Source of the DNA: Longimicrobiales bacterium
GTDB taxonomy: Bacteria > Gemmatimonadota > Gemmatimonadetes > Longimicrobiales > Gaopeijiaceae
NCBI GenBank assembly: GCA_963662845.2
Contig: CAXXCM010000001.1
Location: forward strand, 275,241 to 339,240
Reading direction: 5' to 3'
Length of the DNA: 64,000 bases
In this document: positions 8,364-9,919 of the stretch, in pieces
Layout: each line of letters begins with the position of its first letter
How positions within the stretch are numbered: position 1 is the first letter of the stretch
Made by a program: the position numbers and the translations under genes
Notes under the pieces: generated by a model
The model's database searches: none
What the model saw: only the letters and a program-made list of their open reading frames with translations
Told to the model about the DNA's origin: nothing

Positions 8364-8888
8364 ATGCTTCGAAGGAAGCGAATCAGTCGTGTTGCGACCG
8401 TCGCCGGATCAATCTCCCGGCACCGGTTCAGCCTCTCGGGGTGGCAGGGTGCGATGCTGGCCCTGGCCTCCGTTCTCTTTTCCTTCTCCGCCGTACGTTC
8501 CCGCGTGGACGACCACACCTTCAATGAATTCGTCGACACAGCGGGCACGTCCGGACCCAGCATGGTGTTCGTAACCACGGCCGCCGACTGTCTGGCTCTG
8601 GTCGAGGACGTTCACGAGATCGCGGACCAACTGACCGTGCCGACGCGGGTGCTCGTCATCCAGGACGGCGTCTCCGATTCGGACATCGACAAGCTCGTTG
8701 CCGCCGCCGGCGAGAACATCGCGCTCGAACCGGTTCCGTGGCGTGCCGTCACTCCGATCGGGCGACTCGTCCGAACTCCCTTCGCCATCGGGTTTCGCGG
8801 CGATGGAGCCATCGGGTTCGTCGAGAGCATCGGCGGCCAAGCGGCTCTGAGGGCGGACTCGTTCCAAGAAAGGATTGGTGCGTCATGA
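8364..8888 (+). CDS. Membrane-anchored hypothetical protein, possibly a degenerate thioredoxin fold
   Basis: Track ORF 8058..8888 trimmed to ATG 8364, preceded by ggaggga. It has an N-terminal TM helix (AMLALASVLFSFSAV). The order MVFVTTAADCLALVEDVHEIA ... VLVIQDG ... RTPFAIGFRGDGAIGFV follows thioredoxin-fold strands and helices, but with a single Cys. Confidence 0.6.
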   Translation: MLRRKRISRVATVAGSISRHRFSLSGWQGAMLALASVLFSFSAVRSRVDDHTFNEFVDTAGTSGPSMVFVTTAADCLALVEDVHEIADQLTVPTRVLVIQDGVSDSDIDKLVAAAGENIALEPVPWRAVTPIGRLVRTPFAIGFRGDGAIGFVESIGGQAALRADSFQERIGAS

Positions 8889-9919
8889 CCCGACCAACCA
8901 TGCTTGGCCTGGCGTTCCTGCTTCTGACCGCCGCGTGCGAGAGCGGCCTTGTCGACGGTACCCCCAAGCTGTTCAGCGAAGGGTCGGGGGTTCGGACGGT
9001 GCATACGGCGTCATACGACACGATCTGGCACTATGGGGGCATGAACGACACCATTCTCGGTGCGCCCACGAGGCTAGTGGCTGCACCTGACAACGCGCTG
9101 TACGTGCTTGACCCGATGCTGCAGCAGGTGATTCGCCTCTCGCCCTCTGGAGACTTGGACTGGCGCTGGGGCAGGAAGGGCGAAGGACCCGGCGAGCTGG
9201 GCAACGTGCGAGCCCTCGACGTCACGCCCGATGGCGGGGTCGTGCTCGCGGACTCCGGCAACTGCCGCCTGGTGTTCCTGTCAGCGCACGGCGTTCTCGA
9301 ACGAGAGGACGCTGTGGTCTGCGCGGACTTCGGGCTCATGGAGGGCGTTGCGGCTCTCGCGTCCGGCGACGTCGTGCTCGACACCAACCGACCGGGCAAC
9401 CCCTGGATACTGCAGTCCGCAAGTGGCGAGCAGGATTCGGTCAGGGTGCCGTGGCCGGGGCTGGAAGGGATGCACTTCCTTCAGCGATACGGCAACGTGG
9501 GCAGGTCCGACGGCGATGTCTGGGTCTTCGGCTTCGAGGCGGGAAACGGCTGGTTCGTCCTCGAACGCGACAAGGTTCTCGGGGTGTTCCCCTACGTGGA
9601 GCACACTGATTTCCCCGAGGTCATCGTAAGCCAAAGCGGCAACAGGACCATGTGGAGGATGGCAGAGCGCCCCGCCTATTCCGCGTACGACCTGAATGTC
9701 TGGAAGGACACGTTGTACGTGGTTCCGGGAGGCCATACGGAACATCGGTTTCGGGTGCTCGACAAGTACGGAATCCGGAGCGGAGAGTATCTGCACTCGC
9801 AGGCGCTGCCGGACTTCGCCGATGGCGTCGCTGTCACGGGCGATCGCGTGTTCGTCCTGAACAATCGAGAACTCTATCCACAAATCACGTCATTGCGACG
9901 AAAAGGAGATGAACAGTGA
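8885..9919 (+). CDS. NHL-repeat-like six-bladed beta-propeller lipoprotein
   Basis: Track ORF 8738..9919 trimmed to ATG 8885, which makes an ATGA overlap with the upstream stop. Lipobox LLLTAAC. It has repeated NHL-like blades (ALYVLDPMLQQVIRLSPSG, GVVLADSGNCRLVFLSAHG, DVVLDTN...). Confidence 0.75.
   Translation: MTRPTMLGLAFLLLTAACESGLVDGTPKLFSEGSGVRTVHTASYDTIWHYGGMNDTILGAPTRLVAAPDNALYVLDPMLQQVIRLSPSGDLDWRWGRKGEGPGELGNVRALDVTPDGGVVLADSGNCRLVFLSAHGVLEREDAVVCADFGLMEGVAALASGDVVLDTNRPGNPWILQSASGEQDSVRVPWPGLEGMHFLQRYGNVGRSDGDVWVFGFEAGNGWFVLERDKVLGVFPYVEHTDFPEVIVSQSGNRTMWRMAERPAYSAYDLNVWKDTLYVVPGGHTEHRFRVLDKYGIRSGEYLHSQALPDFADGVAVTGDRVFVLNNRELYPQITSLRRKGDEQ

What the first reader, a model, noticed from the sequence alone, without database searches (positions are those of the whole stretch)
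8364..9919. Peptide array is translationally coupled to an NHL-type propeller lipoprotein and a membrane-anchored thioredoxin-fold-like protein
Seen in sequence: gene 8364..8888 overlaps gene 8885..9919 (ATGA), which in turn overlaps the first peptide gene (GTGA at 9916-9919). The six genes therefore look like one operon, preceded by about 0.5 kb of non-coding DNA. The second protein has a lipobox and NHL-like blades. The first has an N-terminal TM helix and a secondary-structure order reminiscent of thioredoxin folds, but with only one Cys (AADCLAL). Inference: the two larger proteins may fold, oxidise, process, bind or neutralise the four-Cys peptides in the periplasm or at the outer membrane. 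NHL and six-bladed propellers include peptide-modifying enzymes such as peptidyl-hydroxyglycine lyase. Arylsulfotransferases are also beta-propellers, and the Tyr-rich peptide tails make a modification hypothesis worth testing. That hypothesis is pure speculation.
Basis: inference. Interest (0 to 1): 0.65.

Follow-up and report, generated by a model that had tools for sequence, protein, structure and literature searches.

The report
Thioredoxin-like, propeller and cysteine-peptide operon
A sponge-associated Gemmatimonadota bacterium carries a six-gene operon (a membrane-anchored one-cysteine thioredoxin-like protein, a propeller-shaped lipoprotein and four small exported four-cysteine peptides). 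This gene set recurs across the phylum, has not been described, and most likely handles the peptides' disulfide bonds in the cell envelope.

Summary
Genes 8364-8888 (A), 8885-9919 (B) and four peptide genes (9916-10946) form one tightly coupled plus-strand operon, with ATGA and GTGA overlaps and Shine-Dalgarno sites before every peptide.

- **B** is a true six-bladed NHL propeller lipoprotein. Its family profile hits TRIM71 NHL at E=2e-32, and the AF2 model has pLDDT 91.
- **A** is a membrane-anchored TlpA/DsbE/ResA-like thioredoxin fold that keeps the cis-Pro loop. It has one conserved Cys in a 'DC' motif, and none of 171 relatives has a second Cys three residues on.
- **Linkage:** among 50 distinct B homologues, all from Gemmatimonadota, 26 have A immediately upstream, usually with a 4-nt overlap. 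Of these, 23 (24 counting a divergent Cys-rich peptide) have family peptides adjacent. None of the 24 solo propellers has one.
- **Peptides:** they always carry an even number of Cys (4 to 10), a hydrophobic or aromatic loop between Cys3 and Cys4, a near-invariant Tyr-aromatic pair after Cys4, and mostly a net negative charge.

Best reading: A and B form a split version of the Trx-NHL unit seen in NHLRC2/SOQ1. This unit binds the co-encoded peptides and shuffles or holds their disulfides.

The literature searches run here found no description of this trio. This scan has noted similar trios in at least seven other genomes.

The parts
7846..8363 (+). Non-coding leader or promoter region of the operon. 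It contains blocks that are 100% conserved among orthologues (about 7958-8035) and a small hairpin before the Shine-Dalgarno site.
   Evidence: No convincing ORF. Alignment with L038-L040 shows invariant blocks such as TGTCCCATCCAGCTATGGAAGCGCCCCTG, which are more conserved than the coding genes. Terminator-like hairpins at 7876-7934 end the upstream redoxin gene. No Rfam family matches.
8364..8888 (+). Gene A: 174-aa membrane-anchored (N-in, periplasmic domain) monothiol TlpA/DsbE/ResA-like thioredoxin-fold protein. Invariant residues are D75-C76 and T138-P139 (cis-Pro loop).
   Evidence: AF2 pLDDT 75 with b-a-b-a-b-a-b-b-a order. Foldseek top hits are Mtb DsbE, Etrx1, ResA, DsbF, SCO1 and CcmG. 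Family profile versus PDB gives DsbE at E=0.0035. Family statistics: 163/171 have DC, 0/171 have Cys at +3, 156/171 have TP.
8885..9919 (+). Gene B: 344-aa six-bladed NHL-repeat beta-propeller lipoprotein (lipobox LLTAAC, Cys18), translationally coupled to A (ATGA).
   Evidence: AF2 pLDDT 91, pTM 0.87. Foldseek hits the NHL domains of Thin, TRIM2/3/71 and Brat (TMt 0.7-0.76). Family profile versus PDB gives TRIM71 NHL at E=2e-32. 54 homologues, nearly all unannotated Gemmatimonadota.
9916..10155 (+). Peptide 1 (79 aa): Sec signal peptide (ARA|Q), then a 46-aa mature peptide with pattern C-x6-C-x7-C-x6-C, an FWILF loop and an FLFY tail. Its start overlaps the B stop (GTGA).
   Evidence: peptide-family HMM E=3e-6 in the whole genome; net charge -8.
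10168..10389 (+). Peptide 2 (73 aa): signal peptide (VRA|Q), then a 40-aa mature peptide with pattern C-x6-C-x7-C-x6-C, an FWIFF loop and a DYHYW tail.
   Evidence: (E=5e-6). This copy is absent from the 73%-identical orthologous operon, which has three peptides.
10427..10663 (+). Peptide 3 (78 aa): signal peptide (VNA|Q), then a 45-aa mature peptide with pattern C-x7-C-x5-C-x8-C, an IMWW loop and an SYYW tail.
   Evidence: (E=6e-13). Orthologues are 55% identical.
10704..10946 (+). Peptide 4 (80 aa): signal peptide (LSA|Q), then a 49-aa mature peptide with pattern C-x6-C-x5-C-x22-C, an amphipathic loop and a YHYYYR tail.
   Evidence: (E=4e-9). Orthologues are 67% identical.
11005..11050 (+). 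Strong stem-loop after the last peptide gene. It is a candidate operon terminator, although it has no U-tract.
   Evidence: RNA fold -26.9 kcal/mol; z-score -4.67 against 200 shuffles.

Best explanation
The six genes are one operon. It encodes a self-contained, envelope-located module for handling thiols and disulfides.

Shown:
- A is an inner-membrane-anchored thioredoxin fold of the TlpA/DsbE/ResA type that has kept the cis-Pro loop but only one cysteine.
- B is a lipid-anchored six-bladed NHL propeller with no conserved cysteine of its own.
- A and B are translationally coupled in most family members.
- One to four Sec-exported peptides with an even number of cysteines accompany the A-B pair in 23-24 of 26 distinct loci.

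Inferred:
- A and B form a stoichiometric periplasmic complex, a split-gene counterpart of the fused Trx-like plus NHL unit of NHLRC2/SOQ1. In those proteins the redox motif sits at the Trx/propeller interface.
- The propeller face binds the aromatic-rich peptide (the Cys3-Cys4 loop and the Tyr-aromatic pair).
- A's single Cys attacks disulfides first introduced by the general DsbA-like/VKOR machinery, forming a transient mixed disulfide.
- A peptide thiol resolves this mixed disulfide. A-B would therefore act as a dedicated disulfide isomerase or holdase that delivers correctly folded two-disulfide mini-proteins of about 5 kDa.

What the folded, acidic peptides do afterwards (signal, competitor-directed agent, metal or surface binder) is not known.
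For: Operon and coupling. Conserved NTGA or TGATG overlap of A and B at 19 of 26 distinct junctions.

Folds: B; A.

Monothiol character is family-wide. Of 171 relatives (drawn from 134 clusters at E<=1e-10 among 1.84 billion representatives), 163 have 'DC', none has Cys at +3, 119 have exactly one Cys, and 156 keep TP.

The only conserved cysteines in the module apart from A's own Cys are in the peptides, because B has none beyond its lipobox.

Co-occurrence: of 26 A-linked propellers, 23 have peptide-HMM hits and one more has another Cys-rich exported peptide; 0 of 24 solo propellers do. The own genome has exactly one A and four family peptides, all in this operon.

Peptide Cys counts are always even: 4 (29 peptides), 6 (11), 8 (1) and 10 (1).

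The trio spans at least four GTDB families of the class and a remote subfamily. No other gene is conserved around it.

General oxidising machinery (VKOR next to a DsbA-like gene) and reducing machinery (CcdA/DsbD plus TlpA) exist elsewhere in the genome.

Precedents: the Trx-like plus NHL interface of NHLRC2/SOQ1 (PMC6107167; bioRxiv 10.1101/2021.03.16.435614), and operon-encoded thioredoxin-fold helpers for disulfide peptides such as PedC, BlpG and BdbA (PMC4919988).
Against:
- No complex model could be made.
- It is ambiguous whether C76 matches the exposed N-terminal or the buried C-terminal Cys of CxxC. Two canonical TlpA paralogues align in different registers, and in the AF2 model C76 is the fourth residue of helix alpha1. 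A buried position would fit isomerase chemistry less well.
- The A model has only moderate confidence (pLDDT 75).
- B also exists as solo paralogues that are interspersed with linked ones on the tree (13 changes) and have no distinguishing residues. B therefore has a function that does not need A or the peptides.
- One remote locus has peptide plus A but no B.
- B shows no specific sequence relationship to the NHLRC2 propeller.
- The loci are related genomes, so the co-occurrence counts are not independent.
Confidence: 0.5

Rival explanations
1. Effector plus self-protection. The peptides are secreted competitor-directed agents (bacteriocin-like). The membrane-tethered A-B pair protects the producer or acts as its receptor or immunity unit, rather than folding the peptides.
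For: Tandem, fast-diverging peptide paralogues: 49-67% identity, against 75-84% for flanking genes in the nearest orthologous locus. Peptide number varies from 1 to 4. A same-genus genome carries a very different module variant (B 35-40% identical) next to the same flanking genes, which are 81-86% identical. This is typical of loci under diversifying selection.
Against: 37 of 42 distinct mature peptides are anionic (median charge -4; the window's four range from -3 to -8). By general knowledge, most membrane-active bacteriocins are cationic. There is no dedicated exporter, double-glycine leader or recognisable immunity protein. The conserved single Cys and cis-Pro of A point to thiol chemistry.
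Confidence: 0.15
2. Regulatory or sensing unit. A-B is the working machine, like SOQ1 acting on its lipocalin partner, and the peptides are its ligands, inhibitors or redox-sensing partners. Peptide disulfide state would report envelope redox conditions.
For: The Trx-like plus NHL precedent: SOQ1 regulates a partner protein, possibly by disulfide exchange at the Trx/NHL interface (bioRxiv 10.1101/2021.03.16.435614). B functions without A or peptides in solo paralogues. A selenocysteine redoxin gene lies directly upstream in this genus, even next to a different module variant.
Against: No regulator, kinase or sigma/anti-sigma gene is conserved next to the module. The upstream redoxin is linked only within this genus. 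Several divergent peptide copies per operon are hard to explain for a single sensor.
Confidence: 0.15
3. Peptide-modifying enzyme. The propeller chemically modifies the Tyr/aromatic tail (amidating-lyase-like, sulfotransfer, cross-link or quinone formation), and A assists.
For: A near-invariant Tyr-aromatic pair sits a few residues after Cys4. Some six-bladed propellers are enzymes: PAL is weakly hit at E=0.002 and virginiamycin B lyase appears in the fold search. A PYVEH loop is conserved among the closer homologues.
Against: No hit to any enzyme family in Pfam or NCBIfam. Only one His is invariant even among close homologues, against the three-His zinc site of PAL (established knowledge). 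E239/H240 are not conserved once distant module-linked propellers are included. The residues conserved throughout are the generic NHL structural motif. The best structural and profile matches are non-enzymatic binding NHL domains.
Confidence: 0.07
4. Small-subunit model. The peptides are cofactor-bearing or structural small subunits of a propeller enzyme, as in methylamine dehydrogenase (propeller heavy chain, Cys-rich light chain, thioredoxin-like MauD).
For: The parts list resembles the mau cluster: a propeller, a membrane-anchored thioredoxin-like protein and a Cys- and aromatic-rich small exported protein. This rests on established knowledge and was not tested.
Against: B is a six-bladed NHL propeller closest to binding domains. 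There is no MauG- or MauE-like gene or any other conserved neighbour. Having one to four highly divergent peptides per propeller does not fit a fixed subunit.
Confidence: 0.05

Closest known systems
NHLRC2 (animals) and SOQ1 (plant thylakoid lumen): TlpA/DsbE-like Trx domain fused to a six-bladed NHL propeller
   Same: Both have a TlpA/DsbE/DsbF-like thioredoxin fold working next to a six-bladed NHL propeller in an oxidising or extracytoplasmic compartment. In the solved structures the CxxC-position motif lies at the Trx/propeller interface, which is proposed as a partner-binding cleft (PMC6107167; bioRxiv 10.1101/2021.03.16.435614). Here the two parts are translationally coupled.
   Different: Here there are two separate membrane-tethered polypeptides rather than a fusion. 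The motif is a monothiol 'DC' instead of CC(I/V)NC. The B profile does not hit NHLRC2 at E<=1 in the PDB. There is no C-terminal beta-stranded domain. Dedicated Cys-rich peptides are encoded alongside, whereas the NHLRC2 paper found no conserved operon partners for bacterial NHLRC2 homologues (PMC6107167).
Operon-encoded thioredoxin-fold helpers of disulfide-containing peptides: PedC (pediocin PA-1), BlpG-St (thermophilin), BdbA/BdbB (sublancin 168)
   Same: A thioredoxin-fold protein is encoded in the same operon as small exported peptides whose activity depends on correct disulfides. Pediocin has four Cys (PMC4919988).
   Different: Those helpers carry CxxC, the peptides are cationic with double-glycine leaders and ABC exporters, and no propeller is involved. 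Here the helper is a monothiol, the peptides use Sec signal peptides and are anionic, and an NHL lipoprotein is an obligatory third part.
TlpA/DsbE/ResA/CcmG family of membrane-anchored periplasmic thiol-disulfide oxidoreductases
   Same: Same fold, same N-terminal membrane anchor and same cis-Pro loop. NCBI names one family member 'TlpA family protein disulfide reductase'.
   Different: The defining CxxC dithiol is absent in all 171 relatives examined. A two-electron reductase cycle is therefore impossible without an external thiol. There is no link to cytochrome c or Sco/CoxB maturation genes.
Similar trios noted earlier by this scan in other Gemmatimonadota genomes (propeller lipoprotein, thioredoxin-fold partner and Cys-rich mini-proteins)
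   Same: The same three-part logic in the same phylum. Those reports independently named the same closest relatives (NHLRC2/SOQ1, PedC, sublancin).
   Different: Those notes mostly describe CxxC thioredoxin-fold lipoproteins and other Cys patterns (C-C-CC, Cys/His). This operon has a transmembrane-anchored monothiol 'DC' partner and C-C-C-C plus Tyr-aromatic peptides.

Membership tests
NHL-repeat six-bladed beta-propeller (B) | Repeated NHL sequence motif detectable by profile | tested here: met
   The single sequence is below the Pfam cut-off (PF01436 E=0.05). The 41-sequence family profile hits the NHL domains of TRIM71, TRIM3, Thin and TRIM2 at E=2e-32 to 1e-28.
NHL-repeat six-bladed beta-propeller (B) | Six four-stranded blades around a central axis | tested here: met
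   The AF2 model (pLDDT 91) has about 27 strands in six blades. Foldseek top 20 are NHL domains, with TM (target-normalised) 0.7-0.76.
Bacterial lipoprotein (B) | Signal peptide ending in a lipobox with an invariant Cys | tested here: met
   MTRPTMLGLAFLLLTAAC fits the PROSITE-type lipobox. L-x-x-x-C is the consensus in the 41-sequence alignment. Lipidation itself cannot be tested here.
TlpA/DsbE/ResA-like thioredoxin fold (A) | Thioredoxin fold with inserted helix/strand and a membrane anchor | tested here: met
   AF2 secondary-structure order b-a-b-a-b-a-b-b-a after a long transmembrane helix. Foldseek hits DsbE 1lu4 at E=5.5e-6, and also ResA, DsbF, CcmG and Etrx1. Profile hit to DsbE 3gl3 at E=0.0035.
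TlpA/DsbE/ResA-like thioredoxin fold (A) | Conserved cis-proline loop opposite the active site | tested here: met
   T138-P139 is invariant in alignments A2 and A3 and present in 156 of 171 relatives.
TlpA/DsbE/ResA-like thioredoxin fold (A) | CxxC dithiol active site | tested here: not met
   0 of 171 relatives have Cys at +3. 163 have D-C and 119 have a single Cys in the whole protein. A is therefore a monothiol derivative, not a canonical disulfide reductase.
NHLRC2/SOQ1 family | Trx-like and NHL domains in one polypeptide with a CC(I/V)NC motif | tested here: not met
   A and B are separate genes (ATGA overlap) with motif AADC. The B profile finds no NHLRC2 chain at E<=1. The resemblance is in architecture and logic, not in membership.
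Peptidyl-alpha-hydroxyglycine alpha-amidating lyase (PAL) | Zinc site of three His plus catalytic Tyr/Arg in the propeller centre (established knowledge) | tested here: not met
   Only one His (H240) is invariant among close homologues, and it is not conserved across all module-linked propellers. The PAL match is weak and confined to the generic repeat (E=0.002).
Arylsulfotransferase (ASST) with a dedicated DsbL-type partner | Sequence membership in the arylsulfotransferase families, and a conserved disulfide in the propeller that needs the Dsb partner | tested here: not met
   No Pfam or NCBIfam arylsulfotransferase hit at E<=1. B has no conserved Cys beyond the lipobox.
Bacteriocin operon with a thioredoxin-fold accessory protein (PedC/BdbA type) | Cationic peptide with a double-glycine leader, an ABC exporter, an immunity gene and a CxxC accessory protein | tested here: not met
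   The peptides have Sec-type signal peptides and are anionic. There is no exporter or immunity gene, and the accessory protein is a monothiol. Antimicrobial activity cannot be tested here.
Known peptide families (Pfam, NCBIfam), including the RiPP precursor models in those libraries | A significant profile match for any of the four peptides | tested here: not met
   No family at E<0.01. The only weak hits come from signal-peptide composition. No maturase-type gene is conserved nearby.

The most novel reading that the evidence does not exclude
The operon is a split, substrate-defined version of the Trx-like plus NHL machine whose fused forms (NHLRC2, essential and disease-linked in humans; SOQ1 in plants) still lack a known mechanism. 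If so, the co-encoded four-Cys, Tyr-aromatic peptides are its natural clients. The pair would act as a new type of monothiol, propeller-guided disulfide isomerase or thiol-retention device. This would give the first tractable model with defined substrates for that whole protein class, and would reveal a new family of exported disulfide-rich mini-proteins from sponge-associated and other uncultured Gemmatimonadota.
Probability: 0.25. Interest if true: 0.8.

Novelty: new variant of a known kind. Interest (0 to 1): 0.6.

Why it matters
Thioredoxin-like plus NHL-propeller proteins are widespread, and one of them (NHLRC2) is essential in mammals, yet no client or mechanism is established for them. 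Here the two parts are separate and translationally coupled, and they are always encoded with small Cys-rich peptides that are the only plausible thiol partners. That turns an open question (what does a Trx-NHL unit act on, and how?) into a simple co-expression and mass-spectrometry experiment.

The operon also defines three unnamed families:
- a monothiol 'DC' TlpA-like family, with 134 clusters at E<=1e-10 and 425 at E<=0.001 worldwide;
- a propeller lipoprotein subfamily;
- a C-C-C-C plus Tyr-aromatic peptide family.

All three come from a poorly studied phylum that includes sponge symbionts.

Tried and rejected
- **Glutaminyl cyclase idea.** All four mature peptides start with Gln, and some cyclases are propellers. 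Rejected: Gln at +1 is not conserved in other loci, and no Glu_cyclase hit was found.
- **ASST/DsbL analogy** (a thioredoxin partner serving the propeller's own disulfide). Rejected: B has no conserved Cys.
- **PAL-like lyase.** Rejected; see the membership test.
- **Methylamine-dehydrogenase-like small subunit.** Kept only as a low-probability rival.
- **Upstream selenocysteine redoxin as a fourth module part.** It is adjacent only within this genus. No CxxC thioredoxin-fold gene lies near other A-linked modules.
- **Other conserved neighbours.** All-against-all comparison of flanking ORFs from nine lineages found none.
- **Residues separating A-linked from solo propellers.** None found. Linked and solo copies are interspersed on the tree.
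- **Register of C76 relative to CxxC.** hhalign against the neighbouring redoxin aligned only the cis-Pro strand. HMM alignments to two TlpA paralogues disagree. This stays unresolved.
- **The search for related loci with the diverse A alignment** failed because no stretch was conserved enough.
- **Recalled Bacteroidota analogy** (NVEALA small proteins next to DUF5128 propellers). It could not be tested: no paper holds the term, and the family rang in no control genome.
- **Contexts of two distant DUF5128/NHL hits.** One has no related neighbours. The other (L068) has a monothiol redoxin and a Thioredoxin_7 gene coupled to an NHL lipoprotein, but no peptide.
- **Multimer modelling.** Not possible with the tools and caps available.
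- **Leader region.** Rfam and promoter scans found nothing.
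Full report
**1. The observation**

The window lies in a 4.4-Mb, 8-contig Gemmatimonadota genome (G000:C1:275241-339240). Related records are named Longimicrobiales or Gemmatimonadetes MAGs. An earlier follow-up note on this genome calls the organism sponge-associated. 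Reading the sequence confirms the coordinates.

- Gene A runs 8364-8888 and starts at an ATG preceded by GGAGGGAG.
- Gene B runs 8885-9919. Its ATG overlaps the stop of A (ATGA).
- Peptide gene 1 runs 9916-10155. Its GTG overlaps the stop of B (GTGA), with AAGGAG upstream.
- Peptide genes 2-4 (10168-10389, 10427-10663, 10704-10946) follow after 12, 37 and 40 nt. Each has its own GGAGG-type ribosome-binding site.
- Upstream lie 518 bp without a credible ORF. Terminator-like hairpins directly after the preceding redoxin gene separate that gene from the operon.
- A strong stem-loop (-26.9 kcal/mol, z -4.7) lies about 60 nt after the last peptide gene.

The six genes therefore look like one transcription unit.

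**2. What the two larger proteins are**

Pfam and NCBIfam give no significant hit for any of the six products.

B has 54 homologues among 5.8 billion proteins. Nearly all are unnamed, and those that are named come from Gemmatimonadota.
- A 41-sequence alignment gave a confident AF2 model (pLDDT 91, pTM 0.87).
- Its best PDB matches are the NHL domains of Thin, TRIM2/3/71, Brat and Mei-P26.
- The family profile hits TRIM71 NHL at E=2e-32.
- B carries a lipobox (LLTAAC).
- B has no conserved cysteine beyond the lipobox.

A has few relatives. After I collected diverse family members from neighbouring loci, the evidence for a thioredoxin fold was consistent:
- The family profile hits DsbE, a 'thiol-disulfide isomerase and thioredoxins' entry and ResA structures (best E=0.0035).
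- The AF2 model (pLDDT 75) shows a long transmembrane helix followed by b-a-b-a-b-a-b-b-a.
- Foldseek returns only extracytoplasmic TlpA/DsbE/DsbF/ResA/CcmG/Etrx/SCO-type thioredoxin folds.

Invariant residues are D75-C76 at the start of helix alpha1 and T138-P139, the cis-Pro loop. An exhaustive profile search of 1.84 billion cluster representatives finds 134 clusters at E<=1e-10 and 425 at E<=0.001. Among 171 of these relatives:
- 163 have the 'DC' pair;
- none has a cysteine three residues later;
- 119 contain exactly one Cys;
- 156 keep 'TP'.

A is thus a monothiol derivative of the TlpA/DsbE fold. It is not a canonical disulfide reductase, although NCBI names one member as such. Whether C76 matches the first or the second Cys of CxxC could not be settled.

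**3. The peptides**

All four have a basic n-region, a hydrophobic core and an A-x-A|Q cleavage site. The mature parts are 40-49 residues long with exactly four Cys.

Aligning 39 distinct family members from many loci gives the following signature:
- C-x(6-7)-C, often with Gly or Asp one or two residues after Cys1;
- then x(4-6)-C;
- then a variable, strongly hydrophobic or aromatic loop of 4-22 residues, ending in Cys4;
- then a near-invariant Tyr followed by another aromatic residue, a few residues after Cys4.

Cys counts in 42 distinct mature peptides are always even: 4 in 29 peptides, 6 in 11, 8 in one and 10 in one. This is what is expected for fully disulfide-bonded exported proteins.

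The window's peptides are acidic (net charge -3 to -8, pI 4.1-4.9). So are 37 of the 42 family members.

**4. Is the linkage real?**

A scan of 401 Gemmatimonadota genomes found B homologues (E<=1e-20) in 39 of them, often as several paralogues. A collection-wide pattern scan recovered 24 more loci, all Gemmatimonadota or Longimicrobiales.

I called ORFs in all loci and searched them with HMMs for A, B and the peptide core. This gave 50 distinct B proteins:
- 26 have A immediately upstream. Of these, 23 have one to four family peptides within 2 kb, either upstream of A or downstream of B.
- The three exceptions are a locus with a frameshifted A (L015), a contig edge (L034) and a locus with a different eight-Cys exported peptide (L032).
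- None of the 24 solo B genes has a family peptide.

In the window's own genome there is exactly one A, four family peptides (all in this operon) and two B genes. The second B (40% identical) stands alone between unrelated genes.

The A stop overlaps the B start by 4 nt at 16 of 26 distinct junctions and by 1 nt at 3 more. When a peptide gene follows B, it frequently overlaps it in the same way.

The trio occurs in at least four GTDB families of the class. It also occurs in a remote subfamily, where the order is antiporter, peptide, A, B and then a small two-transmembrane-helix protein. One locus of that subfamily has lost B.

No other gene is conserved around the trio in nine lineages.

These counts come from related genomes and are not independent. 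Even so, the pattern (A and the peptides together or not at all) is clear.

**5. Evolutionary behaviour**

On a maximum-likelihood tree of the 50 propellers, linked and solo copies are interspersed. At least 10 changes are forced by well-supported branches. No residue distinguishes the two groups. Some 'solo' copies sit next to decayed remnants: L029, for example, has a truncated B and a peptide-like ORF missing one Cys.

Peptide subtypes follow the propeller clades.

In the nearest orthologous operon, percent identities are:

| Gene | Identity to this window |
|---|---|
| AsnB (flank) | 84-88% |
| Redoxin (flank) | 80-86% |
| M28 peptidase (flank) | about 78% |
| B | 73% |
| A | 68% |
| Peptides | 49-67% |

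That operon has three peptides rather than four.

A same-genus genome (G194) has the same left flank at 81-86% identity. It is followed by a very different module variant: one peptide upstream, and a B only 35-40% identical. The module is therefore a fast-evolving accessory unit.

**6. Mechanism**

The only conserved cysteines in the module are C76 of A and the peptide cysteines. Thiol-disulfide chemistry between A and the peptides is therefore the most economical reading.

The genome has general oxidising machinery (a VKOR next to a DsbA-like gene) and general reducing machinery (CcdA/DsbD next to a CxxC TlpA) elsewhere. A monothiol cannot itself donate or remove a disulfide. By established PDI/DsbC chemistry, however, it can attack a substrate disulfide and be released by a substrate thiol (isomerisation). 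It could also hold a substrate covalently, as in thiol-mediated retention.

B's best relatives are binding propellers, not enzymes. The residues conserved across all family members are the generic NHL structural motif.

The fused Trx-like plus NHL proteins NHLRC2 and SOQ1 place their redox motif at the interface with the propeller's binding face. They are thought to bind a partner there (PMC6107167; bioRxiv 10.1101/2021.03.16.435614).

I therefore propose that A and B form a split Trx-NHL unit. The propeller would bind the aromatic-rich peptide, and A's Cys would shuffle or hold its disulfides. The steps that are shown and those that are inferred are listed separately under the best explanation.

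Operon-encoded thioredoxin-fold helpers for disulfide peptides (PedC, BlpG, BdbA; PMC4919988) are a functional precedent. They differ in having CxxC sites, cationic peptides and dedicated exporters.

**7. Rivals**

- A bacteriocin-plus-immunity reading fits the rapid diversification. It fits poorly with anionic peptides, Sec export and the lack of exporter or immunity genes.
- A sensing or regulatory reading, as for SOQ1, is possible. No regulator is linked.
- A methylamine-dehydrogenase-like small-subunit reading has no supporting genes.

**8. Novelty**

Literature searches found no description of such a trio and none of the term NVEALA.

This scan's own notes record similar Gemmatimonadota trios in at least seven other genomes. 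Those notes name the same closest relatives. I reached the NHLRC2/SOQ1 and PedC comparisons before reading them.

What is particular here is the transmembrane-anchored monothiol 'DC' partner and the C-C-C-C plus Tyr-aromatic peptide family.

I class it as a new variant of known kinds (Trx-NHL units; dedicated thioredoxin-fold helpers of disulfide peptides). Its main value is that it supplies candidate clients for a Trx-NHL machine.

**9. Limits**

- No complex model could be made.
- The A model has only moderate confidence.
- The Cys register is unresolved.
- Export and lipidation are predicted from sequence only.

Noticed in passing
window 7228-7845 (+): An exported AhpC/TSA-type redoxin gene is interrupted by an in-frame TGA at 7486-7488, exactly at the first position of its CxxC motif (FYRGHW-TGA-PYC). 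The TGA is conserved at the same codon in the five related loci examined (four distinct ones, since L063 covers the same place as L039: L038, L039, L040, L062). This supports a selenocysteine (UxxC) redoxin. It sits directly upstream of the operon throughout this genus, even where the module variant differs.
   Followed up: partly
window 7958-8035 and 8310-8345: The 518-bp leader contains blocks that are 100% identical in four orthologous loci (for example TGTCCCATCCAGCTATGGAAGCGCCCCTG and TGATCGCAGAGAC). These blocks are more conserved than the coding genes, so they are probably an operator, a promoter or a 5'-UTR element. No Rfam family or sigma-70 consensus matches. The small hairpin before the Shine-Dalgarno site is not exceptional (z = 0.1).
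   Followed up: partly
L062 (G194:C2:328000-340000), about 4650-6800: A same-genus genome has the same AsnB and Sec-redoxin flank (81-86% identical) followed by a very different module variant (one peptide upstream of A; B only 35-40% identical). Synteny is lost downstream. The site behaves as a variable accessory locus.
   Followed up: partly
L065 2602-4914 and L064 3687-5048: A remote subfamily of the module has the order CaCA antiporter, six-Cys peptide, A ('QPGDC'), B, then a conserved protein of about 155 aa with two transmembrane helices. L064 has the peptide, A and the two-helix protein but no propeller.
   Followed up: partly
L068 3945-5942: A distant NHL/DUF5128-type lipoprotein (GC 69%, record GCA_054037915.1, organism not identified) is start/stop-coupled to a Thioredoxin_7-type protein with one Cys at the active-site position. 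It is preceded by an AhpC/TSA redoxin with a monothiol 'DCPVS' motif. No Cys-rich peptide was seen. This is another split Trx plus NHL pairing.
   Followed up: no
G000:C1:273643-274894 (just upstream of the window) and G000:C6:234826-235739: A CcdA/DsbD-type membrane protein lies next to a CxxC TlpA-like protein. Elsewhere, a VKOR homologue lies next to a DsbA-like gene. These are the genome's general envelope reducing and oxidising pathways.
   Followed up: no
protein P0118: A 3363-aa protein matches the C-terminal part of the A-family profile (positions 114-158) in ten separate stretches (E=1.9e-19). This may be a repeat protein built from the cis-Pro strand region, or a compositional artefact.
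   Followed up: no
window 11271-13088 (+): A 605-aa protein that I took, from its sequence by eye, to be a PA-domain/M28-type peptidase follows the operon; its family was not checked with any tool. It is syntenic only in the closest relatives (about 78% identical) and is not part of the conserved module.
   Followed up: partly
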